NCBI GenBank assembly: GCA_018333535.1
Contig: JAGXTA010000003.1
Span: 19,989 to 83,988, forward strand
Direction of reading: 5' to 3'
From: Deltaproteobacteria bacterium
GTDB lineage: Bacteria; Desulfobacterota; BSN033; UBA1163
DNA length: 64,000 nucleotides
The translations under genes and the position numbers were made by a program. This document shows, in pieces, positions 46,151 through 61,286 of the stretch. The notes under the pieces are model-generated. The model had not been told where the DNA came from. It did not search any database and worked only from the letters and a program-made list of their open reading frames with translations. Each line of letters opens with the position of its first letter. Within the stretch, counting starts at the first letter, position 1.

Positions 46151-46199
46151 CCTAATTTGGTCCAGCTGCACAACAACGCTTAACTCGCCTGGAGCCCCC

Positions 46200-46376
46200 A
46201 TGAAAGACATCCTTGACCAGATGGAGGAACATATTGCAGCGATTCGAAACCTTCAGATGAATTTTAACTTCCATTCGAAGAAACTCGAAAAATTGATGAG
46301 GGCTTTGATTGATATTCAACCGCAAAATCAAAACGTGGATGAGGATCATACTATCCCATCACAAGGAAATAATTAA
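46200..46376 (+). CDS. Small hypothetical protein (58 aa), below the ORF-track cutoff
   Basis: GGAG 5 nt before the ATG; MKDILDQMEEHIAAIRNLQMNFNFHSKKLEKLMRALIDIQ..; fills the gap before the priming GT. Confidence 0.5.
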   Translation: MKDILDQMEEHIAAIRNLQMNFNFHSKKLEKLMRALIDIQPQNQNVDEDHTIPSQGNN

Positions 46377-46388
46377 TCACCTGAGCCT

Positions 46389-47465
46389 ATGAACATGAAC
46401 GATTCCCGATCCATAGAGAAAACCATATTGTCAAAACCCCATTTCCTTGACCGGTTACGGGTTGAGCAACGGCGAGCCGATCGATCCAAATTGCCTTTGT
46501 CAATTGTGCTTTTATCTTTTCGGGCAGGAGCGATCCCTGACAAAAAGCTCTTTAGAGAACTTTTAGAAATGCTGCAGAGAAATACACGAGAAACAGACAT
46601 TAAGGGTTGGATTGATAATTGTGCCATAGGGCTTATTCTTCCAGATACAAACGAAAATGGAGTTCAATGTTTCGTTGAGAAAATCTTTAATGGAAATGGA
46701 GAACTGGCTTATTCGGTCATTAAAGGAACCTACCCAGACGATCTTTTTCGGGAGCTGCTTAAGGAGACACAAGGTCAACCAAACCTTTTTCCTGTCGACG
46801 TTGTTGAATCCCATACTTCGCATGGCATCCAGGATGTCCTCAAAAGAGTTATGGATATCGTAGGGTCACTCATTGGGCTAATGCTCTTTTCACCTCTCAT
46901 GCTCATCACAGCTGTTGCAATAAAAATAACCTCCCCGGGACCGATCATTTTTAAACAATTTCGTTTGGGAAAGAAAGGCCTACGGTTTCCATTCTATAAA
47001 TTCAGATCCATGTACTGGAATGCGGATGATTCGATTCACCGGGAGTACGTAAACAGTTTAATACAGGGCGACCTCAAAAAAATCAATCAGGGGGATAAGG
47101 AGACGCCCCTTTACAAGATGAAATCCGATCCTCGGGTCACTCTTGTCGGAAAAATCATTCGTAAGACAAGCATCGACGAACTTCCACAGTTTTTCAACGT
47201 ATTAAAGGGAGAGATGAGCCTGGTGGGGCCTCGTCCCCCTATCCCTTATGAAATTGAGAAATATAAACCCTGGCATCTCAGGAGGATCCTGGAAGTCAAA
47301 CCCGGCATCACTGGACTCTGGCAGGTGGATGGAAGGAGTAGGACATCGTTTGATGGTATGGTGCGTTTGGATCTGAGATATGCGCAAAATTGGTCTCTCT
47401 GGCTCGACCTGAAGATATTGCTGAAGACGGTAAGAGCCGTCATTCGTCCCCAAGGCGCCCTCTAA
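46389..47465 (+). CDS. Priming (polyprenyl-phosphate) sugar transferase with N-terminal degenerate GGDEF-like domain
   Basis: [27 protein letters not shown] and [10 protein letters not shown] motifs. N-terminus [24 protein letters not shown]. Confidence 0.9.
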
Positions 47466-47484
47466 CTTCGATAGGATAAGCGGC

Positions 47485-47607
47485 TTAAGGTTAGAGATCA
47501 GAGGCAAAAAAATAGATATGTTTGAGGTTTGAGATTGAAGGCCGAAGGCAAAAGGGAAACTATTTTTCCCGCTAACCTGAAGCGTAGCGTTCCTCAAACC
47601 TCAAACA
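47485..47607. repeat. Inverted heptamer arms (GTTTGAG/CTCAAAC)
   Basis: gtttgaggtttgagattgaaggccgaagg ... cctcaaacctcaaac. Confidence 0.6.
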
Positions 47608-47624
47608 GTTAAAAGGAGGAAAAA

Positions 47625-48701
47625 ATGAAAATCGCAGTGATCGGATGTGGCTATTGGGGTCCAAATCTTATCAGGAATTTTGTCCAGTCTAACAAGATTG
47701 AGGAATTGACCTGTTGTGATTTAGACCAGAAAAGGTTAGACCGGATGAAGAGCCTCTATCCCTCCGTCAAGTTGGCATCAAATTACGAAGAGCTCCTTCA
47801 GAAGCCCGACCTTGATTCAGTGGCCATTGCAACCCCCGTAAAGACCCATTACCCGATTGCAAAGGAATTCCTTTCCGAGGGGAAACATGTCTTTATTGAG
47901 AAACCTCTAACCCATTCGTTTGATACGGCATTAGAGTTAGTGAAATTGGCTGAAGAGAAGCAAAAGGTGTTGATGGTGGGACATACCTTTGAATATACGG
48001 CGGCTGTCAACAAGATTAAAGATATCGTCGACAGTGGCGAGATTGGAAAGATCCTCTATATTAGTTGCACTCGCGTAAATCTTGGTCTCTTTCAGCCGGA
48101 TATTAATGTCATATGGGATCTCGCCCCTCATGATATTTCAATCATTCTTTACATTCTTGGGGAGGCTCCGGTTTCCGTCAATAGCCAGGGGAGGGCCCAT
48201 TTCAAAGCCGGGATTGAAGATGTGGCCACCACCACGCTCAATTTTAAAGATGGTGTGATTGCGTTTATCCACAATAGTTGGCTCGATCCCAACAAGATCC
48301 GCCGAACCACCATTGTGGGAACAAAGAAAATGCTGGTTTATGATGACATTGAGCCTCAGGAAAAGATCAAAATATTCGATAAGGGAGTTGACGTTCCTCC
48401 TTACTATGATACCTTTGCAGAATTTCATTTATCTTACCGCTATGGCGATATTCACAGCCCAAGAATTGAGGACTATGAACCCCTTAAAAAGGAATGTGAC
48501 CATTTTCTCACATGTATTCAGAATGGCGTGTCTCCATTAAGTGATGGGTATAGCGGGGTAAGGGTGGTTTCGATTTTGGAGGCCGCAAGCAAATCCCTGA
48601 GGCTCTCGGGGAGATCCGTCCAGACTCAGGGTCTTAAGTTATTAAACAAAAAATCGAAAAACAATGGAAACGGGTTTTTAATGGCAAGCAGCTGGAGGTG
48701 A
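47625..48701 (+). CDS. Gfo/Idh/MocA oxidoreductase (nucleotide-sugar dehydrogenase)
   Basis: GCGYWG, HVFIEKP and WDLAPHD motifs. Confidence 0.92.
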   Translation: MKIAVIGCGYWGPNLIRNFVQSNKIEELTCCDLDQKRLDRMKSLYPSVKLASNYEELLQKPDLDSVAIATPVKTHYPIAKEFLSEGKHVFIEKPLTHSFDTALELVKLAEEKQKVLMVGHTFEYTAAVNKIKDIVDSGEIGKILYISCTRVNLGLFQPDINVIWDLAPHDISIILYILGEAPVSVNSQGRAHFKAGIEDVATTTLNFKDGVIAFIHNSWLDPNKIRRTTIVGTKKMLVYDDIEPQEKIKIFDKGVDVPPYYDTFAEFHLSYRYGDIHSPRIEDYEPLKKECDHFLTCIQNGVSPLSDGYSGVRVVSILEAASKSLRLSGRSVQTQGLKLLNKKSKNNGNGFLMASSWR

Positions 48702-48704
48702 AAA

Positions 48705-49247
48705 ATGGAATTTCAAAGCATTGCAGCCGATGTAAAACTTGGCGAAAATGTGAAGATCCACAAATTCGTGAACCTCTACGGTTGCGAGGTGGGAGACAAC
48801 ACCAAAATTGGCGTCTTTGTCGAAATTCAGAAAAATGCCAGGGTAGGGAAGAACTGCAAAATATCGAGTCACACCTTTATCTGCGAGGGAGTGACGATTG
48901 AAGATAATGTGTTCATCGGGCATAGCGTTGTTTTCATAAACGATATGTATCCCAGGGCGACCAACGGCAATGGAGGGCTTCAAACCGAAAAAGATTGGAA
49001 AGTGGAACGCATTCTCGTTAAAAAGGGCGCCTCCATCGGCTCCAATTGCACCATATTGAGCAATGTCGTAATAGGTGAAAATGCAATTATTGGCGCGGGG
49101 AGCGTAGTTACAAAAGATGTTCCGCCCAATGTGATTGTTGCCGGCAACCCAGCCCGCTTCTTTCGTACAATCGATTTTCTATCTCAACCAGACGTCAACG
49201 AACAATATGTTTTGTATGAATTTCTTAAAGAAAGGATAAAGGTTTGA
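48705..49247 (+). CDS. Hexapeptide-repeat N-acyltransferase (WbpD/WlbB-like)
   Basis: LbH repeats, FINDMYPR, GAGSVVTKDVP and GNPAR motifs. Confidence 0.9.
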   Translation: MEFQSIAADVKLGENVKIHKFVNLYGCEVGDNTKIGVFVEIQKNARVGKNCKISSHTFICEGVTIEDNVFIGHSVVFINDMYPRATNGNGGLQTEKDWKVERILVKKGASIGSNCTILSNVVIGENAIIGAGSVVTKDVPPNVIVAGNPARFFRTIDFLSQPDVNEQYVLYEFLKERIKV

Positions 49248-49381
49248 GGTTAGAGGTTTAAGGTTTGAGGTTATAAAATGTTACGGGTTCAAGGTTGCAA
49301 GTTACAAGTTAATCTACACCCTACACTCTGTGTTTTTAAGAACTCGTAACTCGCAACATTTAACACTCAACACTTAAAACT
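49241..49381. repeat. Compound heptamer arrays of several unit types
   Basis: ggtttga/ggttaga/ggtttaa, gttacgg/gttgcaa/gttacaa, ctacacc, aactcgt/aactcgc and aacactc units. Confidence 0.75.
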
Positions 49382-49406
49382 CCCCCTTGCGCCTAACGAG
49401 GTAAAT

Positions 49407-50657
49407 ATGGAAATCCCCTTTTTAGATCTGAAGATTCCACATCGTGAACTCGAGGAAGAGCTGGTGCAAGTTTTCCGCGACGGCCTCAGAAACGCCTCAT
49501 TTATAGGGGGCATGCAGGTCGAATCTTTTGAGAAGGAATTTGCCCAGTTTTGCGAGACCCAACACTGCATTGCCGTAAATAGCGGAACCGATGCCCTTCG
49601 GTTTGCCTTAATCGCTGCCGGCATCGGGCCAGGTGATGAAGTGATCACGGTTCCAAATACTTTTATCGCAACCACAGAGGCCATCTCCCAAACTGGTGCG
49701 ACTCCAGTTTTTGTAGATATCGATGAACGCACCTACAACATCGACCCCAACAAACTCGAAGACTACCTGAAAAACCGCCTCCAGCCTCCAGCCTCCAGCC
49801 TCCAACCACGTCCTCGTGCTGTGCTCCCCGTCCATCTCTATGGCCAACCCGCTGATATGGACTCGATTCAGGAGATCGCAGATCGATACGGTCTGATGGT
49901 GATCGAGGACGCCTGCCAGGCTCATGGAGCGCTCTATCATTCAAAAAAAGATGATCAATGGAAAAAGGCCGGTTCGATGGGATTGGCTTCAGCCTTCAGT
50001 TTCTATCCCGGGAAAAATCTTGGGGCCTGCGGGGAGGGCGGAGCGGTCACTACAAATGATGAGGGTATCGCACAGAAAATAAGGATGCTCCGTGACCACG
50101 GCCAGGCGAAAAAATACTACCATGAATTCGAAGGGTATAATGGAAGGCTGGATGCCATCCAGGCCGGGATTCTCAGGGTCAAACTGAGATGTCTCAATGA
50201 ATGGAACGAAAAACGCCGCCACAACGCCTCTCTTTACACTCAACTCTTATTACCCTACACCCTACACTCTACTCCCAACACCCGGCATTTATCACTTATC
50301 ACCCCCCATGAGCCTGAATGGGCAAAAGCTGTTTACCACCTTTATATTATTCGAACCAAGAAAAGGGATGAGCTTCAGAAATATCTTTCAGAAAATGGAA
50401 TTCATACGGGCCTTCACTACCCCGTTCCACTTCACCTTCAAGGGGCCTATGCGAATAACGGATTCAAGAAAGGCGATTTCCCTGTAACCGAGGAGGTTTC
50501 TTCTGAGATCCTTTCTCTCCCCATGTTCCCGCAATTGACGGAGCAGCAAATCCGGTATGTCGCCGACAATATCAAGCAGTTTTTAAAACTTCGTCTAGAT
50601 TTTAACACGCAACACGTAACTCGTAACACTCAATACTTAACCCCCAAACCCCTATGA
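49407..50657 (+). CDS. DegT/DnrJ/EryC1/StrS aminotransferase
   Basis: [21 protein letters not shown] and [10 protein letters not shown] motifs. Confidence 0.95.
49777..49804 (+). repeat. (GCCTCCA)4 inside the DegT ORF
   Basis: Four perfect copies; the reading frame is intact. Confidence 0.9.
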
Positions 50658-50672
50658 TATGCCTCAAACCTC

Positions 50673-50714
50673 AAGCGCTTGCCTGCCGAAGCTTTGCATA
50701 GGTAGGAAGCGCTT
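50673..50714. repeat. Small palindromic element flanked by AAGCGCTT
   Basis: aagcgctt-g-cctgccgaagctttgcataggtagg-aagcgctt. Confidence 0.5.
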
Positions 50715-50781
50715 TTTTAGTCTTTATCCTTCCTCCTTGGCACGTCAAAACGTTTTTATCTTTTAACCTGTAACACTCTTT

Positions 50782-51822
50782 ATGGACGATAGCATTCAAA
50801 TCATTAATCCCACTCAACATAAAGGTTGGGAGGATCTCATCCTTTCCCATCCGGAAGCCTCCTTCTTCCATTCTTCGGCCTGGGCTAGGGTACTCTCGGA
50901 ATCTTACGGTTATGTTCCGAAATACTTTGCGATGATCAGGAACGAAAAGCTGGTTTCCCTCCTGCCCGTCATGGAAGTCAATAGCCTTTTTACAGGGAAG
51001 AGGGGAGTCTCGCTGCCTTTTACGGACTACTGTGAACCCATCGTCGGTCCGGAGGTTTCTTTGGACGATTTGCTTAATTGTGTCGTTGACACCGGCAAAA
51101 GATCGGACTGGAAATCTCTGGAGTTAAGGATCGGGCAGAAAGCGCTGCCGAACCGCCGGATCGCGTTAAAGTATCTTGGACATGAGCTCAAACTTGGGCA
51201 GGATGAGGAAAGGCTCCTCTCAGGGTTTCGGGACAGCACAAGGCGGAATATCCGGAAGGCGATCGGGGAGGGGGTGGAGGTAAAGAGTTCGAATACAACG
51301 GAGGGGATGAAGGAATTCTACCGGTTAAACAGCTTAACAAGAAAGGAACACGGCCTCCCTCCCCAGCCCTACCGGTTTTTTGTGAAGGTCTTGGAACACA
51401 TCATTTCAAGGGATCTTGGACAGGTTTATCTGGCATCGCGTGCCGGAAAAAACATTGCGGGCGCCATCTATTTCCATTTCAATGGAAAGGCCTATTACAA
51501 ATATGGAGCATCTGATAAAAACTATCAACATCTCAGGCCAAACAACCTGGTCATGTGGGAGGCCATCCGGTGTTATTCCGGAAATGGGACAAGGAGCCTC
51601 TGCATGGGCCGGACCGAACCCGATCATGAGGGACTTCTTCAATTTAAATCCGGCTGGGGAACGACGGAACAACCGATCCGTTATTACCGGTATGACTTTA
51701 AAAAGGGTTCTTTTGTTTCAGGTTCTTCAAAGGTTACGGGCTTTCATAATAAGATTTTCAAGAATATGCCCATCCCTATTTTGAACAAAATAGGAGCCTT
51801 ACTCTATAAACATGTCGCCTAA
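50782..51822 (+). CDS. FemAB-related GNAT acyltransferase
   Basis: SLPFTDY, RRNIRKA, HGLPPQP, PNNLVMWE and GL..FKSGWG motifs. Confidence 0.88.
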   Translation: MDDSIQIINPTQHKGWEDLILSHPEASFFHSSAWARVLSESYGYVPKYFAMIRNEKLVSLLPVMEVNSLFTGKRGVSLPFTDYCEPIVGPEVSLDDLLNCVVDTGKRSDWKSLELRIGQKALPNRRIALKYLGHELKLGQDEERLLSGFRDSTRRNIRKAIGEGVEVKSSNTTEGMKEFYRLNSLTRKEHGLPPQPYRFFVKVLEHIISRDLGQVYLASRAGKNIAGAIYFHFNGKAYYKYGASDKNYQHLRPNNLVMWEAIRCYSGNGTRSLCMGRTEPDHEGLLQFKSGWGTTEQPIRYYRYDFKKGSFVSGSSKVTGFHNKIFKNMPIPILNKIGALLYKHVA

Positions 51823-51952
51823 CGTTTTAGGCTTGTAACAGCAACACCGCAGCGCAGCAACATAGCGGCACTCAAAATTAACTCAATAGATAACTCACAA
51901 CTCATAACTGATTAACTCCTTAACCCAAGCAACTCAATCGATTGAAAAAATG

Positions 51953-51984
51953 TTGACATTTCATCTTTAAAAGTGTACACTTTT
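51953..51984 (+). promoter_or_regulatory. Sigma70 promoter and operator of the TA module
   Basis: TTGACA-N17-TACACT. The perfect palindrome AAAAGTGTACACTTTT (51969-51984) covers the -10. Confidence 0.75.
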
Positions 51985-52011
51985 TTGAAAATTGCAGTTT
52001 GAGGGCTAACA

Positions 52012-52245
52012 ATGGAAATAAACGTAAAAGAAGCAAGGGCGAGGCTAAGCTTCCTGCTTAAAAAAGTTGAAAAAGGAGATGAGATTCTGCTTCTGCGCAG
52101 GGGCAAGAAAGTGGCACGGCTTGTTCCGGTACAAACTCCGCAACGCTCCCTGCCCAGTTTGAAAGAGTTCCGATCTTCTATCCAATTGAAGGGGAAGCCT
52201 TTGAGTGCTGTCGTTGTAGAAAGTAGGGAAAAGGAACGGTTCTGA
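52012..52245 (+). CDS. Phd/YefM-family antitoxin
   Basis: INVKEARARLS.LL..VEKGDEI...RRGK.VARLVP. Confidence 0.9.
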   Translation: MEINVKEARARLSFLLKKVEKGDEILLLRRGKKVARLVPVQTPQRSLPSLKEFRSSIQLKGKPLSAVVVESREKERF

Positions 52246-52667
52246 TGGTTTATGTCGACACAAGTGTTTTGGTGGGATATTACTGTCCGGAGCCAATTAG
52301 CGAAAAAGTCGAAAGATTTCTCATGGCTCAGAAACGACCGGCAATCAGCCTTCTTACAGAGGTCGAACTCTTTTCAGCCTTATCAAAAAAGATACGAGGT
52401 AAGGAAATGAACCGGAGGGACGCCAGCAAGGTGTCAGCCAGGTTCCTAACTCATTTGGATAATGATTATTATACGAATATCCCTGTTGAAACACATCACT
52501 ACCGATTGGCAAGAGATTGGATCGGCCTGTTTAACACAGACCTTAAAAGCCTCGATGCGCTCCATTTAGCTATCTCTTCGGCGGAGAATTTAACCCTGGT
52601 AACCGTTGATAAGTCCCTTTTTAAATCAGCGAGAGCCCTTACCAGAGATGCTATCTTGCTGGAATAG
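52245..52667 (+). CDS. VapC PIN-domain toxin
   Basis: YVDTS, E..SA, LDALHLA and LVTVD motifs; coupled to the antitoxin. Confidence 0.9.
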   Translation: MVYVDTSVLVGYYCPEPISEKVERFLMAQKRPAISLLTEVELFSALSKKIRGKEMNRRDASKVSARFLTHLDNDYYTNIPVETHHYRLARDWIGLFNTDLKSLDALHLAISSAENLTLVTVDKSLFKSARALTRDAILLE

Positions 52668-52677
52668 ATGCCTTCCG

Positions 52678-52803
52678 CTTTAACCTTTAACGCCCTTACT
52701 CCTAACGCCTTATCTTCTTTTAAACCTTTAGCCTCGAACCTCGAACCTCAAACCTCCGACAGGCGCTGATAGAACTCGCAACTCGAAACCCGTAACTTTG
52801 AAC
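52678..52803. repeat. Heptamer arrays downstream of the TA cassette
   Basis: ctttaac, cctcgaa x2 with cctcaaa, and aactcgc/aactcga/aacccgt units. Confidence 0.7.
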
Positions 52804-54810
52804 ATGAGCCTCATCAACCATATCTACTACCAACTTAAACCCCTGATTCCGAGATCGCTCCAGATTGCTCTTCGGAGGATGGTGGCCCAAGGGAAGCGAA
52901 AACGTTACAGCCGTGTCTGGCCCATAGACGAAGGGGCCGGGAAGCCGCCCGAAAACTGGAGAGGTTGGCCCGATGGAAAGAAGTTTGCCCTGGTTCTCAT
53001 GCACGATGTCGACACCGCGAAAGGTCACGAGAAGTGCCTTGAATTGGCCCAGGTTGATGAAAAAATGGGTTTTCGATCCTCCTTCAACTTCGTGCCTGAA
53101 AGATACAATGTCTCATCCGAGGTGCGTCGGATACTGGTCGAAAAGGGCTTTGAAGTTGGAGTCCACGGCCTCAAGCACGACGGAAAATTATTCTCATCGA
53201 GAAAAACATTCCTGGAGCAGGCAGCTCGTATTAATCACTACTTGAAAGACTGGAAATCTGTGGGATTTGTCTCCCCCTCCATGCATAGAAATCTCGACTG
53301 GATTCACGATTTAAACGTCGAATACGACGCCTCGACCTTCGATACCGATCCCTTCGAACCCCAGCCGGATGGCATTAGAACAATTTTCCCTTTTGTCGTG
53401 AACGGGAATTTGATCTCAAAAGGGTACATTGAGCTCCCGTATACGCTCTCCCAGGATCACACGCTATTTGTAATCATGGGTGAAAAGGGCATTGATCTCT
53501 GGAAGCAGAAACTGGATTGGATCGTCAAAAATGGCGGCATGGCATTATTGATTACCCATCCCGATTACATGAGCTTTAATGGGAAGAAACTGGCGTCGGA
53601 TGAATATCCGGCTGAATACTACAAAGAATTTTTAGAATACATCAAAAAAATTTATAAAGATCAGTATTGGAACGCATTGCCCAGGGACGTCGCTTGTTTC
53701 TGGCGTGAGAGACAGTCCCACAAGGGAAAGAAAGCCGTTAATCAGAAATACGAGGTTACATTGATCGACCCAATCAAAGACCCGAGATGGGACGCCTTTG
53801 TTGAAAACCATCCCTTTGGATGGATTTGCCACCTTTCAGGCTGGAAAAAGGTCCTGGAGACTAGCTTCCCCCACATGAAAGGCCATTACTTGGTTCTTGT
53901 TGATGGTGAGAACAAGATTCGAGCGGGACTGCCCGTTTTTGAAGTAAGAAGCTGGCTCACCGGTAATCGTTTGGTCAGTATTCCTTTCGCAACAGTTTCC
54001 GATCCCCTCATCTCCTCACAAGAAGAGTTTCGCGAATTATTTGATGCCACCCTCGAACTTTCTACCAAGTTGAAAATATTTAACATTCAAATTAAGGCAC
54101 TTACTTCTCAAAAGCTGGTAGAAGAAATACCGCTAAAATTTCAAAGATATTATGTACACCATTACCTACTCCTCAATAAAGGTCTTGATGAAATTAAAAA
54201 GTCATTCCATCTTACTGCAGTACAGCAGCCGATTCAGAAACTTCATAAAGCAAATTTGAGATTATATATCGGTAATGCGAAAGCAGACTTATATGACTTT
54301 TATCACCTCTATGATCAGACAAGGAAGAGGTTGGGTCTTCCAACCCAGCCGTATAATCTTTTTGAGGTATTGTGGGAAACGTTTATGCCCATAAACAAGA
54401 TCTTGGTCTTGTTAGCCAAACAAGAAGGCCATGTTGTGGCTGGACATATTTATTTTAAGTTTAATAAGCGTATGTCAATGGAATTTGAAGGATGGGATAG
54501 AAACTATCATTACCTTACCCCCAATCATTTTATAATCTGGGAAGCTATCAAAATGGCCCATTCCGAAGGATATCAAATATTCGACTTCGGTAGGACATCA
54601 CCCGAAGACACTGGTTTAATAAAATTCAAGGAACGTTGGGGGACAAAAACGGCCACTTTTATGGAAATCGTTTACCCGCCCCATCATTTGCAAGTCTCTG
54701 ATAGCAAGGAGAAATCATTAAAATATAGATTAGCGAGAAAAGTATGCCAGACAGTACCCAATCCTGGCAGAAAGATTATTAGCCATTTTTGTTATCGACA
54801 TTTAGGATGA
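52804..54810 (+). CDS. Polysaccharide deacetylase-like domain fused to FemAB-type GNAT
   Basis: HDVD, GVHG..HD and HPDY in the N-half. SIPF, GLPTQP, FDFGRT and FKERWG in the C-half. Confidence 0.8.
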   Translation: MSLINHIYYQLKPLIPRSLQIALRRMVAQGKRKRYSRVWPIDEGAGKPPENWRGWPDGKKFALVLMHDVDTAKGHEKCLELAQVDEKMGFRSSFNFVPERYNVSSEVRRILVEKGFEVGVHGLKHDGKLFSSRKTFLEQAARINHYLKDWKSVGFVSPSMHRNLDWIHDLNVEYDASTFDTDPFEPQPDGIRTIFPFVVNGNLISKGYIELPYTLSQDHTLFVIMGEKGIDLWKQKLDWIVKNGGMALLITHPDYMSFNGKKLASDEYPAEYYKEFLEYIKKIYKDQYWNALPRDVACFWRERQSHKGKKAVNQKYEVTLIDPIKDPRWDAFVENHPFGWICHLSGWKKVLETSFPHMKGHYLVLVDGENKIRAGLPVFEVRSWLTGNRLVSIPFATVSDPLISSQEEFRELFDATLELSTKLKIFNIQIKALTSQKLVEEIPLKFQRYYVHHYLLLNKGLDEIKKSFHLTAVQQPIQKLHKANLRLYIGNAKADLYDFYHLYDQTRKRLGLPTQPYNLFEVLWETFMPINKILVLLAKQEGHVVAGHIYFKFNKRMSMEFEGWDRNYHYLTPNHFIIWEAIKMAHSEGYQIFDFGRTSPEDTGLIKFKERWGTKTATFMEIVYPPHHLQVSDSKEKSLKYRLARKVCQTVPNPGRKIISHFCYRHLG

Positions 54811-55904
54811 ACGGGAAAGAATCGAAGACTGGAATGAACCAGTCCTTTTTCCAGATAAGAGTGTCTGAATCGGTTCGAGACGATGAATGGGATGCCTTCG
54901 TTGAATCCGAAGCGCAGGGGTCATTTGAACAAACGAGTGGATGGGCTGAGGCAAAGTGGAGTGCGGGTTGGAAATCTATAAGAGTTGTTGTTCTACTTGA
55001 GGATCGCATCTTGGGCGGAAGCCAGATCTTGGTGAAGCAGCTTCCGTTTGGATTCCGGGTGGGCTATCTCCCGAGGGGGCCCGTTTGTGATAATGGGAGG
55101 GACGATGTTCTCACGCTGATTCTGGCTGCATTGAAGAAGGTCTGTAAGGATTCTCATCTATCATGTCTCATTGTCCAGCCTGCAAACAACGGAAGTTTAA
55201 CCGAAGATTCATTAATTCGATCAGGTTTCCGTAGAGACGCAACACTGGGCATTATTAGCGCAACAACAGCCATCGATTTGATTCAGACCTATGAAGCGAT
55301 TCTATCCAGGATGACCAGGAATTTCAGATACAATATCCGGTTTGCAGAACGTAACGGCGTAATCATTCGGGATGGGAAGAGAGAAGAGATTGGTCTTTTT
55401 TTTAGATTGATGCTTGAAACATGCAGACGCCAGGGAGTCAGTCCAAACCCCTCGACGGAATCGTTTATACAGAAACTGTGGGACGTATTTTCCCCCCACG
55501 GGAATATAAGGTTTTTCTTGGCTGAGTATAATGGAGAAGTCGTTTCAGGGCTAATGTGTATCCCATTCGGTAAAGTCTGTAACGCCTGGAAAATGGGATG
55601 GTCAGGGAAGCATGAGAATTCAAGGGCAGTTCATTTTTTGCACTGGAAAGCAATTCAGTGGGCCAAAGATAACGGGTATCATTCTTATGACTTCATGGGA
55701 ATAAACCGGGCTTTGGCTGAAACCATTCTCGAAGGGAATCATTTTTATAAAGTGGCAAAGGGGGCTAATCTGTTTAAGCTATCGTTCGGAGGGGAAGTGC
55801 GTTTACTTCCTGAAGCGTATTATTATTTTAAGAGCCCGCTGCTCGGGTTACTTTACACTAAAGTTTATCCCTACTTCAGAAAAATAAAAGGAGCTATCGT
55901 TTAA
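54807..55904 (+). CDS. FemABX-like peptidyl/acyltransferase
   Basis: FEQT..WAEAK, YLPRGP, RYNIR.A, YDFMG and FKLSFGG motifs; ATGA overlap. Confidence 0.85.
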   Translation: MNGKESKTGMNQSFFQIRVSESVRDDEWDAFVESEAQGSFEQTSGWAEAKWSAGWKSIRVVVLLEDRILGGSQILVKQLPFGFRVGYLPRGPVCDNGRDDVLTLILAALKKVCKDSHLSCLIVQPANNGSLTEDSLIRSGFRRDATLGIISATTAIDLIQTYEAILSRMTRNFRYNIRFAERNGVIIRDGKREEIGLFFRLMLETCRRQGVSPNPSTESFIQKLWDVFSPHGNIRFFLAEYNGEVVSGLMCIPFGKVCNAWKMGWSGKHENSRAVHFLHWKAIQWAKDNGYHSYDFMGINRALAETILEGNHFYKVAKGANLFKLSFGGEVRLLPEAYYYFKSPLLGLLYTKVYPYFRKIKGAIV

Positions 55905-55916
55905 GAGCATTGAATT

Positions 55917-57212
55917 ATGCATAGTGATAAACAACAAGGAATCATTAATAAAATACCTGATAAAAAAAGCCAGGAAGAAAAAAATATAATACCCTATAAA
56001 CCTCGCAGGGTTTGTATGCTGGCATATTCGTTCTATGAATCCGACGGGCGTATAAGGCGTTATGCAGAGACATTGGCAAAGCGGGGCGACTGGGTTGATG
56101 CTGTCGCGTTAAGAGAAGAAGGCCAGTCACATTATGAACTCATAGAAGGGGTGCATGTATACCGGATACAGAAGCGCCTGATTGATGAAAAAGGTGAATT
56201 CTCCTATCTTTTGAAATTGATCAAATTCTTTATCTTATCCATGGCCTTTATCACCAGGAGGCATTATAAAAATCCTTACGATTTGATACATGTTCATTCA
56301 GTTCCCGATTTCGAGGTGTTCACGACTTTATTTCCAAAACTGCTCGGCGCGAAAGTTATTTTGGATATTCATGATATTGTGCCTGAATTTTACGCCAGTA
56401 AATTCAATAAAACCTCTAAAAGCCTCATTTTTAAAGCATTGGCAGGCCTTGAAAAAGCGTCTATTGCATTTTCCGACCATGTTATTATTTCCAATCATAT
56501 TTGGGAAAAAACCTTGCTGTCACGCTCCGTATCAAAAAACAGGTGCAGCGTCATAATGAATTATCCGGATCCTTCTGTTTTTTTCAGAAGAGATAAAAGC
56601 CCAAAAGACGGCCGCTTTATCATTATCTACCCGGGATCACTTAACTGGCATCAGGGGCTGGATATAGCTATAAAGGCATTTGCCCGGATAAAAGATCAGG
56701 TTCCGTCGGCTGATTTTTATATTTACGGGAACGGTCCGGAAAAAAATAATTTAATCGGTCTTGTGGAAACCCTCGGTTTGAACAATAGAGTCTTTATCAA
56801 AGATACGGTTCCCCTAAATCAGATCGCAGATATTATCGCGAATGCCGATCTTGGTATCATTCCCAAGAGAAATAATTCCTTCGGCGACGAGGCGTTCAGC
56901 ACGAAGATATTGGAATTCATGTCTTTAAGCATACCGGTGCTTGTCTCGGAAACCACTATTGACAGATATTATTTTAACGACTCTGTTAGTAAATTTTTCA
57001 CACCCGATGATGTAAATCATCTCTCCCTATGTATGCTGGAGCTTATCAATAATAGGGATATACGCCGTAATTTAACGGATAATGCTCTGAGCTTTGTCGA
57101 AAACTTTAATTGGGATAGAAAAAAATCAGAGTATTTAAACCTGGTCGATTCACTGGTAAGCGACAATAAAAAGAAACCACCGCAACCGCATCATAATCCC
57201 CACGCCAAATGA
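55917..57212 (+). CDS. Glycosyltransferase family 4
   Basis: DGRIRR, DIHD..PE and STKILEFM motifs. Confidence 0.9.
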   Translation: MHSDKQQGIINKIPDKKSQEEKNIIPYKPRRVCMLAYSFYESDGRIRRYAETLAKRGDWVDAVALREEGQSHYELIEGVHVYRIQKRLIDEKGEFSYLLKLIKFFILSMAFITRRHYKNPYDLIHVHSVPDFEVFTTLFPKLLGAKVILDIHDIVPEFYASKFNKTSKSLIFKALAGLEKASIAFSDHVIISNHIWEKTLLSRSVSKNRCSVIMNYPDPSVFFRRDKSPKDGRFIIIYPGSLNWHQGLDIAIKAFARIKDQVPSADFYIYGNGPEKNNLIGLVETLGLNNRVFIKDTVPLNQIADIIANADLGIIPKRNNSFGDEAFSTKILEFMSLSIPVLVSETTIDRYYFNDSVSKFFTPDDVNHLSLCMLELINNRDIRRNLTDNALSFVENFNWDRKKSEYLNLVDSLVSDNKKKPPQPHHNPHAK

Positions 57213-57233
57213 AATTACGTTGTTACTAACCCG

Positions 57234-58112
57234 ATGGATTCCAAAAACATTTCATACGTTTTGATAACTCCCGCGCACAATGAAGAGGACTTCATAGAGA
57301 AAACGATCCAGTCGGTCATTTATCAGACTGTTTTGCCGAAGAAGTGGGCGATCGTCAACGACGGATCAACAGACGGAACGGATGATATTATAAAACGATA
57401 TGCAAAGCGCCATGACTGGATAGAATTTATCAGATTGTCGCAACACACTGATCGGCAATTTGCCGCCAAGGTACACGCATTCAATGCAGGTTATGAAAGA
57501 ATCAAGAATAGTGAATATGCGATAATCGGGAACCTCGATGCCGACATATCCTTTGAAAAAGATTACTTTGAATTTCTGCTCAGTAAATTCAATGAAAACG
57601 GCAAACTCGGTGTTGCCGGCACGCCGTTTGTCGAAGAATCATTCAAAGGGTATGATTTTAAATTCGCCAATATCGAGCATGTCTCCGGCGCATGCCAGTT
57701 ATTCAGACGAGAATGTTTCGAAAGTATCGGGGGATACAAACCCATTCGCGGTGGTGGCATCGACTGGATTGCCGTCACAACAGCCAGGATGAAGGGGTGG
57801 AAGACAAGAACCTTTACGGAAAGGACCTGCCTTCACCATCGGAAAATAGGGACCGGAAATAACAGCGCCCTGATGGCCTTGTTCAAACAGGGCCGTAAAG
57901 ACTATTTTTTGGGAAACCATCCCTTGTGGGAAATATTTAGAACCTTTTACCAGATGAGTAGAAAACCTTACGTCATGGGAGGATTACTTCTATTCTTCGG
58001 ATTTGCATGGGCGGGCATTAAAAGAACAGAGAGGCCTATTTCCAAAGAACTTATGGAATTCATACGCAGAGAGCAAATGCAACGATTAAAGAATATTTTT
58101 AGGAAATTATAG
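57234..58112 (+). CDS. Glycosyltransferase family 2
   Basis: ITPAHNE, NDGSTD and NLDAD motifs. Confidence 0.92.
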   Translation: MDSKNISYVLITPAHNEEDFIEKTIQSVIYQTVLPKKWAIVNDGSTDGTDDIIKRYAKRHDWIEFIRLSQHTDRQFAAKVHAFNAGYERIKNSEYAIIGNLDADISFEKDYFEFLLSKFNENGKLGVAGTPFVEESFKGYDFKFANIEHVSGACQLFRRECFESIGGYKPIRGGGIDWIAVTTARMKGWKTRTFTERTCLHHRKIGTGNNSALMALFKQGRKDYFLGNHPLWEIFRTFYQMSRKPYVMGGLLLFFGFAWAGIKRTERPISKELMEFIRREQMQRLKNIFRKL

Positions 58113-58249
58113 TAGCAGCCCATACCGTATAATTAAGAACATGTAAAATGTAGCCGTATCTTTTATGTTATCTACACCCTACACCCTTTAACCAACCCCC
58201 TTTTTAATAACATGTAACCCGCAACCCGTAACGTATTTATCTCTTTAAC
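58030..58249 (+). repeat. 220-bp direct repeat, copy 1 (GT2 3' end plus downstream spacer)
   Basis: Matches 59085-59304; I count 3 substitutions by eye. Confidence 0.9.
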
Positions 58250-58395
58250 TTGCAACTCGTAACCTGTAACCTGAAACGGTTTTTTAACCCGCAACTCATA
58301 ACTCGTAACATCCTTAAAATGTTCCATGTTTCACGTTTCGAGTCGTCTGGGAGGGTTGACTTGGACTCTATACTATGATAAATTTTCAATATATT

Positions 58396-58549
58396 ATGGA
58401 CGCCTTAGCAAAACAGTTGGATGCCAAACTGCGTAAGTGGCAGCCTGAGAAGGCGGACCAGGTGCGGTGACGTTTGGATATGATCGATGCACCCACAACC
58501 CGGTGAAGTCTGGCTTGTTGATCTAGGATTAGCAGCAAAGACACGGCCG
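58396..58549 (+). pseudogene. Deleted antitoxin/MazF-PemK remnant
   Basis: A 24-aa fragment MDALAKQLDAKLRKWQPEKADQVR*, then only the MazF N-terminus MHPQPGEVWLVDLGLAAKTRP. Confidence 0.6.
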
Positions 58550-58591
58550 ATGGATGCAATGTCATTCCAAATCATTCATGAGGAGGAATAT

Positions 58592-58828
58592 ATGACAGTT
58601 AAGCAACAATTGATAAGAGAGATAGAAGACTTACCACTTGATGCGCAGGAAAAAGTACTCAAGTTAATCCATTTTGTTAAGGAAGAAATATTTGTCTTGC
58701 GCGAGAAAATGTCCACGGAAAAGAAGATGAATGCTCTTACAGATGTGGACAAAATAGCGATCGAAACCGGGATTCAAGATCTGGCAGAGCATCATGATCA
58801 TTACCTATACGGTGTTTCGAAGAGATGA
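58592..58828 (+). CDS. Putative antitoxin (DUF2281-like)
   Basis: RBS gaggagg; REIEDLP..QEKVL and DLAEHHDHYLYG motifs; overlaps the PIN gene. Confidence 0.7.
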   Translation: MTVKQQLIREIEDLPLDAQEKVLKLIHFVKEEIFVLREKMSTEKKMNALTDVDKIAIETGIQDLAEHHDHYLYGVSKR

Positions 58829-59100
58829 AGCGTAAGGTATTTGTAGATACCAGTGCATGGTTGGCTCTCGTCAATAAATCAGATGCTGCCCACCAGAAGG
58901 CAAAGAAGGTACGCGATGCCCTTTTAAAAGATCACATCCAATTCGTAGTTACCAATTATGTGATGGTTGAGATAGCAAATGCACTATGCAGAATTCCTCA
59001 CAGAGAAACAGCAGTGAAGCTTATAAATTTTATAGAAATGACCGAAAATATTCAGATCGTGGAAATTGACAAGGCAATTTATAAAGAGGCCTATTTCTAA
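58825..59100 (+). pseudogene. C-terminally truncated VapC PIN toxin
   Basis: VFVDTSAW and TNYVMVE are present, but it is only 91 aa and is cut off where the duplicated segment begins. Confidence 0.75.
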
Positions 59101-59304
59101 AGAACTTATGGAATTCATACGCAGAGAGCAAATGCAACGATTAAAGAATATTTTTAGGAAATTATAGTAGCAGCCCATACCGTATAATTAAGAACATGTA
59201 AAATGTAGCCGTATCTTTTATGTTATCTACACCCTACACCCTTTAACCAACCCCCTTTTTAATAACATGTAACTCGCAACCCGTAACGTCTTTATCTCTT
59301 TAAC
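59085..59304 (+). repeat. 220-bp direct repeat, copy 2
   Basis: Offset 1055 from copy 1. A C-to-T difference at 59098 creates the PIN stop codon. Confidence 0.9.
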
Positions 59305-59530
59305 ACATAACTCGCAACTTTCGCAGCTTTCCTTGAACCTTTTTCCTTGCACCTTTAACCTTATCCCCTACACCCAATACGCTACACCCTATATGTTTAA
59401 ACCCGTAACTCGTAACATCCTTAAAATATTCCAGGTTTCAGGTTCCAGGTTTCAGGTTCTGTAACGTAATATTTTTTAACTTGTAACTTGTAACGGGTTT
59501 TTATTATTAACTTGCAACATTCTCTCTAAC
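59305..59530. repeat. Heptamer arrays upstream of the four-helix-bundle gene
   Basis: aactcgc, ccctaca, aacccgt, (caggttt/caggttc)4 and aacttgt units. Confidence 0.75.
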
Positions 59531-59532
59531 CC

Positions 59533-59913
59533 ATGAAATCCTACCGCGACTTAGAAATTTACAAAATATCTTATGATTTGGCCGTCAAGATCCACAATGC
59601 CTCATTAAAGCTTCCTCAGTATGAACTGTACGAAGAAGGTAGTCAAATGAGACGATCTTCAAAAGGGGTTCCTGGATGCATTGCTGAGGGATACGGTAGA
59701 AGGCGGTATAAAGCTGAATTCGTTAGATATCTCATTTTCGCTCATGCCTCCTGTGATGAAACCATTTTTCATTTAAATATGGTGAAGGATACACATCAGG
59801 ATATGGCCAGCCTTTTCGAACCCTTCATCAAACCCTACGAAAACTTGAGCCCTAAGATTCACAAATTCATTGAATATGTAGATAAGCATTGGAACAAAGA
59901 TTTTAGAATTTGA
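59533..59913 (+). CDS. Four helix bundle protein (23S rRNA IVS / TIGR02436-like)
   Basis: SYRDLEIYK, LP.YELYE.GSQMRRSS..V...IAEGYGRR and A.ASCDET motifs. Confidence 0.9.
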   Translation: MKSYRDLEIYKISYDLAVKIHNASLKLPQYELYEEGSQMRRSSKGVPGCIAEGYGRRRYKAEFVRYLIFAHASCDETIFHLNMVKDTHQDMASLFEPFIKPYENLSPKIHKFIEYVDKHWNKDFRI

Positions 59914-60067
59914 ACTTGTAACTTGTAACTTGTAACCTGTTTTTTCTGTAATCTGTTTTTCTTCAAACTTGCAACTTGTAACTTGAAACCTGTAATAGTT
60001 TTTTAACCTGCAACGTGTAACCCGTAACTCGCAACGGTTTTTTAACACATAACCTGTAACTTGTAAC
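59912..60067 (+). repeat. Dense AAC(T/C)(T/C)GT heptamer array downstream of the four-helix-bundle gene
   Basis: aacttgt x3, then aacttgc/aacttgt/aacttga/aacctgt, then aacctgc/aacgtgt/aacccgt/aactcgc, separated by T-tracts. Confidence 0.85.
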
Positions 60068-60088
60068 GTTTGAGCGGTGATCTGAACG

Positions 60089-61261: not shown

Positions 61262-61286
61262 GAATAAAATCCAAAAGGTAATTGCC

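What the first reader, a model, noticed from the sequence alone, without database searches (positions are those of the whole stretch)
47485..60067. Heptamer-array cassette system: TA modules and a four-helix-bundle gene enclosed by 7-nt arrays inside an EPS operon
Seen: compound degenerate arrays (AACTTGT/AACTCGT/AACCCGT, CCTCAAA/CCTCGAA, CCCTACA) at 47485, 49241, 50603, 51835, 52678, 58171, 59226 and 59912. They flank each non-EPS insert (Phd-VapC, MazF/PIN remnants, four-helix gene). A G-rich arm (caggtttcaggtt within 59431-59461) is complementary, with one mismatch, to 59980-59992, so the four-helix ORF could be looped out in RNA. Known: this protein family was first found in 23S rRNA intervening sequences and resembles the DGR accessory protein Avd; heptamer STRR repeats are known in cyanobacteria. 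Inference: a gene-capture or mobility system with no transposase or integrase, in which the four-helix protein binds or propagates the arrays.
Basis: partly seen in the sequence, partly recalled or inferred. Interest (0 to 1): 0.75.

Follow-up and report, generated by a model that had tools for sequence, protein, structure and literature searches.

The report
Heptamer-repeat hairpin cassettes in sugar-coat operon
Runs of 7-base repeats fill the gaps of a polysaccharide operon; one pair forms mirror-image arms around a small four-helix-bundle gene, a selfish-looking cassette like the intervening sequences of ribosomal RNA genes, and toxin-antitoxin genes and a local duplication sit at the same repeat-rich junctions.

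Summary
The arrays are real. TRF finds 7 of the 8 named sites. They belong to a genome-wide set of 335 heptamer or octamer arrays.

The solid core is the four-helix gene (PF05635/TIGR02436, 59533-59913). It lies between inverted arrays. So do 6 of this genome's 9 PF05635 genes, each in the top 0.73% of 3689 genes, and 11 of 25 in related genomes. Relatives 52-71% identical keep the same GTTNCNN arm core.

Related genomes fill the same EPS junctions differently. This is an IVS-like hairpin cassette outside rRNA. This scan has noted it on other DNA many times. I found no paper describing it.

The "gene-capture system" reading is only partly supported:
- Arrays also fill three EPS-EPS junctions that hold no insert.
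- The AACNNGN arrays lie next to PIN modules in this genome (5 of 7 clusters), but at only 1 of 21 loci in relatives.
- No recombinase is present in the region.
- The arms show no wobble bias.

Contig depths show that the 234-bp duplication is real. Other populations differ at array borders.

The parts
47485..47606 (+). Gene-less hairpin between the sugar transferase (Bac_transf) and GFO oxidoreductase genes. GTTTGAGGTTTGAG (about 47520-47533) faces CCTCAAACCTCAAAC (47592-47606).
   Evidence: Sequence. TRF row 47592-47606. The same junction in G025 holds a full four-helix cassette.
49232..49382 (+). Compound arrays between the hexapeptide acetyltransferase and DegT genes: AGGTTTG x4.7, a GTTACGGGTT... 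run facing AACTCGTAACTCGCAAC, CCCTACA and AACACTT x3.9. The upstream gene's stop codon lies inside the first array.
   Evidence: TRF rows 49232-49272 and 49354-49382. Sequence.
49777..49804 (+). GCCTCCA x4 (100% matches) inside the DegT reading frame, translated as a loop.
   Evidence: TRF. Alignments: this position is variable in length in three species.
50252..50283 (+). ACCCTAC x4.6 inside the DegT reading frame. It is an 11-residue insertion relative to the G025 orthologue.
   Evidence: TRF. BLASTP gap. Alignment A2.
50603..50675 (+). AACACGC/AACTCGT array, translated as a 22-residue C-terminal tail of DegT, followed by CCTCAAACCTCAAG.
   Evidence: TRF 50603-50633. ORF end 50657. Orthologues end earlier.
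51835..51930 (+). Degenerate AACTCA-like run upstream of Phd. Weak: neither TRF nor the lag detector calls it.
   Evidence: Sequence only. No row.
52012..52667 (+). Intact type II toxin-antitoxin module: Phd/YefM antitoxin (52012-52245) and PIN/VapC toxin (52245-52667).
   Evidence: PF02604 E=4.3e-10 and PF01850 E=1.3e-13. TIGR01552.
52678..52800 (+). Arrays downstream of VapC: CCTCGAA x3.6, then AACTCGCAACTCGAAACCCGT.
   Evidence: TRF 52732-52756. AAC..G. x3 site 52773-52793.
58030..58263 (+). First copy of a 234-nt direct repeat: the last 83 nt of the GT2 gene plus the arrays that follow it.
   Evidence: the repeat finder family D2, 97% identity, spacing 1055. The unitig of this segment has depth 215.6 against 82-107 for its neighbours.
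58171..58340 (+). Compound array block (CCCTACA; AACNNGN in units of about 39 nt that end in a T run).
   Evidence: TRF. Families D1, D3, D4. AAC..G. sites 58209-58229 and 58247-58274.
58398..59100 (+). Decayed toxin-antitoxin remnant: a short ORF, a 113-aa ORF with no family hit, and a PIN gene cut off at 59085 where the second repeat copy begins.
   Evidence: PF01850 E=1e-8 covering profile positions 1-80 of 120. No Pfam hit for the rest. Other populations carry 75-81 more letters at 58467/58474.
59085..59318 (+). Second copy of the 234-nt direct repeat. It is missing from contigs of three other runs, which join 59092 to 59330.
   Evidence: the joint has a 30-nt side in each of three runs.
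59226..59532 (+). Compound array block upstream of the four-helix gene. It includes the G-rich upstream arm CAGGTTT x3.9 (59423-59458).
   Evidence: TRF rows 59227-59494. Inverted repeat I1.
59533..59913 (+). Four-helix-bundle protein gene (126 aa) of the 23S-rRNA-IVS protein family.
   Evidence: PF05635 E=1.6e-20, 73.7 bits against a 33.8 cut-off. TIGR02436 76.2 bits against 24. Weak match to PDB 2gsc, E=2.6e-4. Homologues 46-71% identical.
59913..60070 (+). Downstream arrays (AACTTGT x4, then AACNNGN units). They include the downstream arm 59966-60001, complementary to 59423-59458.
   Evidence: TRF. I1, 36 nt and 81% complementary. The long-range stem is present in both the MFE and centroid folds.

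Best explanation
This is an accessory polysaccharide (EPS) operon whose gene junctions have been colonised by hairpin-type repeat elements built from tandem 7- or 8-base units.

The four-helix-bundle gene at 59533-59913 sits in the loop between inverted arrays. It is a full-length, IVS-like cassette of the kind known from 23S rRNA intervening sequences, here lodged between protein-coding genes. The other arrays in the region are gene-less hairpins and solo arms of this and other unit families.

I infer two further points. First, the cassette inserts at stop/start junctions and decays to gene-less arrays. Second, the arrays act as slippage- and recombination-prone borders where small selfish modules (VapBC-type TA genes) and local duplications accumulate. 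No dedicated capture enzyme is implied. I also infer that the protein recognises its own repeat arms.

Shown here: the anatomy, the genome-wide statistics, the conservation of arm type with protein clade, and the different occupancy of the same junctions in other genomes.

Not shown: mobility, protein binding and RNA processing.
For: - Arrays are a genome-wide feature at periods 7 and 8 only.
- Of 335 arrays, 157 have an inverted partner within 1.2 kb and 61 a direct one. 119 of the 157 inverted partners lie within 100 nt.
- 6 of 9 PF05635 genes have inverted flanks scoring 16 or more, the top 0.73% of 3689 genes. The unit differs per paralogue, and the paralogues are only 15-29% identical.
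- In 20 related genomes, 11 of 25 cassettes score 16 or more, against 3.3% of 600 mismatched flank pairs.
- Homologues of the window protein in other MAGs keep GTTNCNN upstream and NNGNAAC downstream arms. By eye this holds in 4 of the 5 loci that have both flanks (not in L057, 46% identical). L051, with only 26 nt of downstream flank, and L055, with no upstream flank, show the same unit type.
- Arms are alike in 17 of 67 cassette pairs with 45% or more protein identity, against 5 of 352 pairs below 35%.
- The conserved block Bac_transf-GFO-Hexapep-DegT is occupied differently in three genomes. G025 has another four-helix cassette at Bac_transf|GFO, where the window has a gene-less hairpin. 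L054 has a 71%-identical cassette at GFO|Hexapep, where the window has 3 nt.
- Depths of the source-like run show that the 234-bp repeat is two-copy and that both inserts have the depth of their flanks (96.9 and 107, against 82.3-96.1). Three other runs lack the second repeat copy, and one of them (X4) shows array-length indels.
- The long-range stem is present in the MFE and centroid folds.
- In Coxiella the IVS carries tandem heptamers before the S23p ORF and a terminal stem cut by RNase III (PMC4990558, passages read).
Against: - No enzyme for movement is present in the region, and no insertion event has been observed.
- Arm mismatches show no bias towards G.U on the sense strand (44 against 31, p=0.17; 94 transversions). 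Selection for RNA pairing is therefore not shown.
- The whole 691-nt RNA folds no better than shuffles (z=0.45).
- Arms and protein co-diverging is what common descent of the whole cassette would give, so it does not prove binding. Below about 60% protein identity the arms no longer align under strict scoring.
- Three of the 9 PF05635 genes lack strong inverted flanks (C108 scores 10, the C36 pseudogene 8.5, C71 12.5).
- Large array families such as AGATGGGG, AATCCGC and AACGATG have no four-helix gene in this 97%-complete assembly.
- Joints in other runs rest on contigs with sides of only 22-33 nt.
Confidence: 0.5

Rival explanations
1. RNA-level operon punctuation. The inverted arrays form stems in the polycistronic transcript. 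These stems are cut, for example by RNase III as in rRNA IVS, or bound by the four-helix protein. The primary role of the arrays would then be to separate or regulate the transcripts of neighbouring genes, and apparent mobility would be secondary.
For: - The long-range stem 59427-59458 with 59960-59996 appears in both the MFE and centroid folds.
- The single mismatch of the 13-mer is a G.U pair on the sense strand (sequence).
- RNase III excises the homologous Coxiella IVS at its heptamers (PMC4990558).
- Arrays sit at stop/start junctions of co-directional genes.
- In Beggiatoaceae, heptamer repeats lie just upstream of start codons and a translational role has been proposed (PMC4679880, abstract and passages).
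Against: - No wobble bias appears over 29 cassettes (44 against 31, p=0.17).
- Overall folding z-score is 0.45.
- There is no Rfam match at E<=0.1.
- Arrays also lie inside coding sequence.
- Different unit families occupy the same junction in different genomes, which fits insertion better than a conserved regulatory site.
Confidence: 0.2
2. One reading: a dedicated, integron-like gene-capture system. The compound heptamer blocks would be recombination sites that enclose captured cassettes (TA modules, the four-helix gene), served by an unknown recombinase or by the four-helix protein itself.
For: - AAC..G. x3 arrays form 7 clusters in the genome, and 5 lie within 600 bp of a PIN gene (P=2.7e-7 against the intergenic baseline).
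- The flanked PIN proteins are diverse. Only one pair is 79% identical; the rest are 41% or less.
- Contig C100 shows block-TA-block-TA-block with the same order of array types as the window.
- TumE and BrnT/antitoxin genes also lie between inverted arrays.
Against: - In 9 related genomes only 1 of 21 loci with AACNNGN x4 arrays has a PIN gene. Most are housekeeping or EPS junctions.
- Three of the five positive clusters lie in one locus, and the pattern was defined from this window.
- Arrays of any type lie near 8 of 37 PIN genes, against 8.3% of all genes, which is only a modest excess.
- There is no integrase, transposase or reverse transcriptase among the 17 ORFs.
- The blocks share array types but little sequence, 33 nt at 94%.
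- Arrays also fill junctions that hold no insert.
Confidence: 0.12
3. Neutral by-product. The arrays are microsatellite-like slippage products that build up in AT-rich, weakly constrained accessory DNA. Their closeness to small accessory genes is a side effect.
For: - The region is GC-poor: 0.36-0.41 at 58-60 kb, against 0.48 for the genome.
- Array-length indels occur between populations.
- Arrays expand in DegT surface loops.
Against: - Only periods 7 and 8 are enriched.
- Run lengths stop at 4 units in 4 of the 6 families tested.
- Arrays come in inverted pairs (157 inverted against 61 direct).
- The arm core and its orientation are kept at 52-71% protein identity across MAGs.
Confidence: 0.1

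Closest known systems
ORF-bearing intervening sequences (IVS) of 23S rRNA (Coxiella burnetii S23p IVS, PMC4990558; Leptospira and Xanthomonas as cited there)
   Same: - A protein of the same family (PF05635) lies in the loop.
- Terminal inverted repeats are predicted to form a stem.
- Tandem heptamers lie directly upstream of the ORF (three GACAGAT in Coxiella).
- The start context is weak: by eye no Shine-Dalgarno motif precedes 59533.
   Different: - It lies between protein-coding genes of an EPS operon, not in helix 25 or 45 of 23S rRNA.
- The arms are whole arrays of degenerate heptamers.
- Many gene-less copies and solo arrays surround it.
- RNase III cutting is not shown here.
Paired tandem-repeat 'global regulator binding sites', classes 1-3, of Geobacter metallireducens (PMC2700814)
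   Same: Three to five tandem 7-9-nt units occur as pairs on opposite strands at a variable distance, between and within genes, in tens of copies per genome (passages and legends read). This matches the 335 arrays here.
   Different: That paper reads them as IHF/HU-type binding sites and, in the text I searched, names no four-helix gene. The terms 'S23', 'four-helix' and 'intervening sequence' each occur 0 times. Its supplementary tables are PDFs that I did not open.
Cyanobacterial STRR heptamers and Beggiatoaceae TAACTGA repeats (PMC4679880)
   Same: Intergenic tandem heptamers in many copies that vary between strains, with a proposed role in translation or rearrangement.
   Different: Those are mainly direct repeats of one unit upstream of start codons; one inverted case in 170 sets is reported. 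Here there are many unit families, mostly inverted pairs, and a cognate small gene.
Integron cassettes with attC sites and integrase-less attC clusters (from my own knowledge, not from a call)
   Same: Co-oriented small cassettes, often TA modules, are separated by structured repeats of about 100 nt.
   Different: There is no IntI-type integrase in the region. The blocks are periodic arrays rather than the R''-L''/L'-R' palindrome. The TA association does not hold in relatives.
Avd, the accessory protein of diversity-generating retroelements
   Same: Related four-helix-bundle fold family. A G025 paralogue hits PF22296 bAvd at E=3e-6, below its cut-off.
   Different: No reverse transcriptase or template/variable repeat pair is present nearby.

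Membership tests
PF05635 / TIGR02436 four-helix-bundle (23S rRNA IVS) protein | Profile match above the curated cut-off over the whole domain | tested here: met
   PF05635 73.7 bits (cut-off 33.8), profile positions 1-104 of 106. TIGR02436 76.2 bits (cut-off 24).
ORF-bearing 23S rRNA intervening sequence | Inserted in a 23S rRNA helix | tested here: not met
   It lies between a truncated PIN gene plus GT2 repeat and a 390-aa EPS-locus gene. No rRNA or other Rfam match in 46000-62000.
ORF-bearing 23S rRNA intervening sequence | Terminal inverted repeats that form a stem enclosing the ORF | tested here: met
   36-nt arms, 81% complementary. The stem is present in the MFE and centroid folds. Flank score 18.5, top 0.35% of genes.
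ORF-bearing 23S rRNA intervening sequence | Excision by RNase III | not testable with these tools
   Only contigs of an RNA run from another population were available.
Integron / attC cassette array | Tyrosine-recombinase integrase next to the array | tested here: not met
   None of the 17 ORFs of 46389-63999 hits a recombinase family. The rest of the genome was not searched for IntI.
Integron / attC cassette array | attC-type imperfect palindrome at each cassette border | not tested
   No attC model was on hand. By eye the blocks are mostly direct periodic arrays.
Geobacter-type paired tandem-repeat sites | 3-5 tandem units of 7-9 nt, in pairs on opposite strands, dispersed | tested here: met
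   157 of 335 arrays have an inverted partner. Run lengths reach at most 4 in 4 of 6 families.
Type II toxin-antitoxin (Phd/YefM-VapC) | Adjacent antitoxin and PIN toxin genes, overlapping or abutting | tested here: met
   52012-52245 PF02604 and 52245-52667 PF01850, with overlapping stop and start.
MazF/PemK toxin (the claimed remnant at about 58487) | Match to the PemK/MazF profile | tested here: not met
   No family hit at E<=10 for residues 1-35, nor at E<=0.01 for the 113-aa ORF. The resemblance is by eye only.
Diversity-generating retroelement (Avd context) | Reverse transcriptase and TR/VR repeats nearby | tested here: not met
   No RT among the ORFs. The direct repeats found are the 234-nt duplication and the arrays.

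The most novel reading that the evidence does not exclude
Each PF05635 four-helix-bundle paralogue is a sequence-specific reader of its own 7- or 8-base repeat family. Protein plus arrays would form a self-propagating, integrase-free cassette system. It would seed gene junctions with cognate arrays, and those arrays would then serve as exchange borders for other small modules such as VapBC toxin-antitoxin pairs. That would give a function both to a very large orphan protein family and to the unexplained bacterial heptamer repeats.
Probability: 0.15. Interest if true: 0.85.

Novelty: new variant of a known kind. Interest (0 to 1): 0.6.

Why it matters
PF05635/TIGR02436 is a large family with no known function outside the DGR accessory protein Avd. 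Tandem heptamer repeats (STRR, TAACTGA, the Geobacter paired sites) have also lacked an explanation for decades. If the gene-plus-inverted-array unit is a real element, the rRNA intervening sequences become one special case of a dispersed cassette that targets gene junctions. The repeats would gain a candidate protein partner that can be tested by binding and processing assays. For this locus it also explains why a polysaccharide operon is littered with repeats, carries TA modules and a duplicated gene end, and has repeat-encoded loops inside an aminotransferase.

Tried and rejected
- RNA duplex energy between 170-nt flanks did not separate four-helix genes from other genes, because long GC-rich coding flanks dominate. 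I replaced it with strict local alignment.
- The search for related loci with the alignment of seven paralogues failed because no stretch was conserved enough. I used the single protein instead.
- The 390-aa neighbour gene has no orthologue in the 12 same-genus genomes and only one in 54 genomes of the family. A same-species presence/absence comparison of this exact junction was therefore not possible.
- Wobble-bias test for RNA-level selection: no signal.
- Rfam at E<=0.1: no match.
- A pentamer-to-five-repeats correspondence is not supported. Run lengths cap at 4, not 5, and the only PDB relative is a weak match to 2gsc, an entry with five chains.
- blastn of the spacers against the genome found only short shared pieces, so the compound blocks are not one conserved repeat.
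- The L054 PD-(D/E)XK gene has no evident heptamer flanks.
- Assembly artefact for the 234-bp duplication is rejected by depth: 215.6 for the repeat against 82-107 for all single-copy pieces.
- The RNA run X23 gave no cover over the four-helix gene. Shares of 0.19-0.31 in other runs were laid for only three runs. Neither is used as evidence of expression or habitat.
- Literature searches found no paper that links PF05635 genes outside rRNA, or TA modules, to heptamer arrays.

Full report
OBSERVATION

The window is G000:C3:19989-83988, from a 4.39-Mb, 192-contig assembly with 48% GC. It reports nothing at 51835, where the sequence shows only a degenerate AACTCA-like run. Of the 24 period-7 rows in the whole window, 14 fall in 47485-60067.

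A lag-autocorrelation scan of the whole genome (21-nt windows, at least 17 matches) finds 183 intergenic arrays at lag 7 and 116 at lag 8. Every other lag from 4 to 12 gives 0-20. The periodicity is therefore real and specific, and it is a property of the genome, not of this locus alone. Still, this 13-kb stretch is one of the three densest in the genome, and all three hold a PF05635 gene.

- EPS genes: Bac_transf, GFO oxidoreductase, hexapeptide transferase, DegT aminotransferase, three FemAB/GNAT-like genes, GT1, GT2 and an AsnB-like gene.
- An intact Phd-PIN pair.
- A PIN gene truncated at profile position 80 of 120.
- A 126-aa PF05635/TIGR02436 protein.

The 'MazF remnant' finds no profile support. 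The claimed complementarity is real: 59423-59458 and 59966-60001 are 36-nt arms, 81% complementary.

WHAT THE ARRAYS ARE

After merging there are 335 arrays. Of these, 157 have an inverted partner within 1.2 kb (score at least 12) and 61 have a direct one. For 119 of the 157 the inverted partner lies within 100 nt, which makes a short gene-less hairpin. A small group has loops of 400-600 nt.

Unit sequences fall into 58 families. A few are large and dispersed: the GGAATAAT type has 52 arrays on 31 contigs and the GAGTTCG type has 44 on 33. The window's AACTTGT/AACNNGN type is rare. With at most one mismatch per unit, run lengths reach no more than 4 in four of six families tested.

THE FOUR-HELIX GENE IS A HAIRPIN CASSETTE

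The genome has nine PF05635 matches above the cut-off. Six have an array within 150 bp, against 448 of 3855 crude gene models (Fisher p=1.6e-4).

I aligned 200 nt upstream against the reverse complement of 200 nt downstream under strict scoring. Six of the nine score 16 or more, a level reached by 0.73% of 3689 genes. C71 (a frameshifted copy) scores 12.5, C108 scores 10 and the C36 pseudogene scores 8.5.

By eye each copy has its own unit: CAGTRAT, GAGTTCG, CAGGTGAT, an AAGGAGCG-type unit, CAGGTTT/AACTTGT, GGAATAAT twice, and CAAATGT/CAAAGTT. The intact paralogues are only 15-29% identical to the window protein.

In 20 related genomes PF05635 is present in all, with 1-17 matches each. Of the 25 loci with usable flanks (out of 29 fetched), 11 score 16 or more on their own flanks. 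Only 3.3% of 600 mismatched upstream/downstream pairs do so.

The closest homologues of the window protein are 46-71% identical and come from seven loci in Deltaproteobacteria, Syntrophaceae and Syntrophorhabdus MAGs. Four of the five loci with both flanks carry GTTNCNN-type arrays upstream and the complementary NNGNAAC arrays downstream, in the same orientation as here; L057 (46% identical) does not. L051 has only 26 nt of downstream flank and L055 has no upstream flank, and the flanks they do have show the same unit type (by eye).

Over 595 pairs among 35 cassettes, arms are alike (score at least 14) in 17 of 67 pairs with 45% or more protein identity. They are alike in 5 of 352 pairs below 35%. 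Several of the high pairs are orthologous loci, so this shows co-descent of gene and arms, not binding.

JUNCTION OCCUPANCY DIFFERS BETWEEN GENOMES

The block Bac_transf-GFO-Hexapep-DegT recurs in G025 (another genus of the family) and in a Syntrophorhabdus MAG (L054).
- At Bac_transf|GFO the window has a 159-nt gene-less hairpin (GTTTGAGG.../...CCTCAAAC). G025 has a different PF05635 gene with AATGCAA/TTGCACT arms.
- At GFO|Hexapep the window has 3 nt. L054 has a cassette whose protein is 71% identical to the window's.
- Three other close homologues sit between a PrsK-like histidine kinase and a sigma-54 regulator. That is the same kind of junction that holds a different cassette (GGAATAAT arms) on G000:C108.

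The neighbour gene at 60089-61261 has no orthologue in the 12 same-genus genomes. This exact junction could not be compared.

THE TA MODULES AND THE 'CAPTURE' IDEA

Arrays occupy every spacer of 120 nt or more between 47466 and 60088 (8 of 8). That includes three spacers between EPS genes that hold no insert. They are therefore not markers of inserts as such.

Genome-wide, 8 of 37 PIN matches have an array within 400 bp, against 8.3% of all genes and 10% of small genes (p=0.01 and 0.047).

The window's own unit type gives a sharper picture. AAC..G. in three or more tandem units occurs 16 times, 11 of them on C3, in 7 clusters. Five clusters lie within 600 bp of a PIN match (binomial P=2.7e-7 against the intergenic baseline). 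The PINs concerned are diverse. Contig C100 shows block-TA-block-TA-block with the same order of array types as the window. TumE and BrnT/antitoxin genes also sit between inverted arrays, but so do HisF, IF3, a GTPase, a LOG-family gene and an acyltransferase.

Against a general capture system: three of the five positive clusters belong to this one locus, and the pattern was defined from the window. In nine related genomes, 21 loci with four AACNNGN units include only one with PIN genes and one with a PF05635 gene. The rest are housekeeping or EPS junctions such as SecA|ArgJ and aspartate kinase|TsaE. No recombinase or reverse transcriptase is in the region.

REARRANGEMENT AT THE ARRAYS

A 234-nt direct repeat (58030-58263 and 59085-59318, 97% identical) brackets the TA remnant. 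The PIN gene ends exactly where the second copy begins.

In the run that may be the source of this DNA, the repeat unitig has depth 215.6. The TA piece has 96.9, the four-helix piece 107 and the flanks 82-96. The duplication is therefore real, and both inserts have the same depth as their single-copy flanks, as expected if they sit in all genome copies. It is not a collapsed strain bubble.

Contigs of three other runs join 59092 to 59330, so they lack the second copy. They carry 75-81 extra letters at 58467/58474. One of them (X4) also shows many small indels in the arrays at 58195-58283. The joint sides are short (22-33 nt) and these are contigs, so I treat this as moderate evidence that related populations differ at array borders.

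RNA OR DNA?

The 691-nt RNA 59395-60085 folds with the long-range stem in both the MFE and the centroid structure, but no better overall than shuffles (z=0.45). Over the 29 of 40 cassettes whose arms align, mismatches comprise 44 G.U-compatible on the sense strand, 31 compatible on the antisense strand, and 94 transversions (p=0.17). There is thus no sign that pairing in the transcript is under selection. No Rfam family matches.

COMPARISON WITH WHAT IS KNOWN

The closest described object is the ORF-bearing 23S rRNA IVS. In Coxiella a 28-bp terminal stem encloses an S23p ORF preceded by three tandem GACAGAT heptamers of variable number, and RNase III cuts at the first repeat (PMC4990558, passages read).

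The Geobacter metallireducens genome paper lists paired opposite-strand sites made of four octamers, three nonamer-like units or five heptamers (24, 21 and 8 pairs). It reads them as regulator-binding sites. The searched text does not mention the four-helix family (PMC2700814). Its PDF supplements were not opened and may bear on this.

Beggiatoaceae TAACTGA repeats and cyanobacterial heptamers are further relatives in kind (PMC4679880).

Five literature searches found no paper that links PF05635 genes outside rRNA, or TA modules, to such arrays.

This scan has itself recorded the four-helix/heptamer cassette on other DNA. 351 notes hold the search words, including gene-less copies elsewhere in this same genome. 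One earlier claim of base-by-base reading was marked as partly fallen, which is why I rate binding as inference only.

VERDICT

The firm result is an IVS-like hairpin cassette outside rRNA, embedded in a repeat-colonised EPS operon whose junctions are rearrangement-prone.

The integron-like capture reading is not excluded, but it lacks an enzyme and fails to generalise to relatives.

I rate the finding a new variant of a known kind, with interest 0.6.

Noticed in passing
window 49777-49804 and 50252-50283; L079 (G012:C23) and L070 (G009:C267): Heptamer arrays are translated in frame at two loop positions of the DegT aminotransferase. Insert length differs between three species of the genus: 0 to 42 residues at the first site and about 8 to 29 at the second. 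Orthologues outside the genus have none at the second site.
   Followed up: partly
window 49225-49250 and 50590-50657: The arrays overlap gene ends. The hexapeptide transferase stop codon lies inside the AGGTTTG array. DegT carries a 22-residue C-terminal tail encoded by the AACACGC array, which orthologues lack.
   Followed up: partly
G000:C100:3770-6800: A toxin-antitoxin island in which two different antitoxin-PIN modules are separated by compound array blocks (AACTCGC - TTTCGCAGCTTT - CCTTGNN - CCCCTAC - AACNNGN). The order of array types is the same as at window 59290-59420.
   Followed up: partly
G000:C145:929-1876 (L007): A four-helix gene is fused in frame, through its upstream array, to the preceding gene of about 180 residues (cysteine-rich, not identified by any search), giving a 315-aa open frame. 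The array is translated as a KMSNDKVQMSNKVQSSN linker.
   Followed up: no
many contigs: PF05635 genes often lie within a few hundred bases of contig ends (for example G009:C164:53-370, G008:C114:134-448, G000:C108:390-695). This suggests that their repeat arms break short-read assemblies and that copy numbers are underestimated.
   Followed up: no
L054:4100-4528: In the homologous EPS block of a Syntrophorhabdus MAG, the Hexapep|DegT junction holds a small PD-(D/E)XK (PF13366) gene, another kind of small insert. I saw no heptamer arrays around it.
   Followed up: partly
window 58247-60070: The AACNNGN arrays are organised in larger modules of about 39 nt: three to four heptamers followed by GGTTTTTT or a similar T run (repeat finder family D4).
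   Followed up: no
runs X4-X11: Eight runs labelled with one organism code each hold about a quarter of the sampled words of 57000-61000. When one of them (X4) was laid, the cover was 90-99% identical sequence over GT2, the TA remnant and part of the next gene, in partly different contexts.
   Followed up: partly
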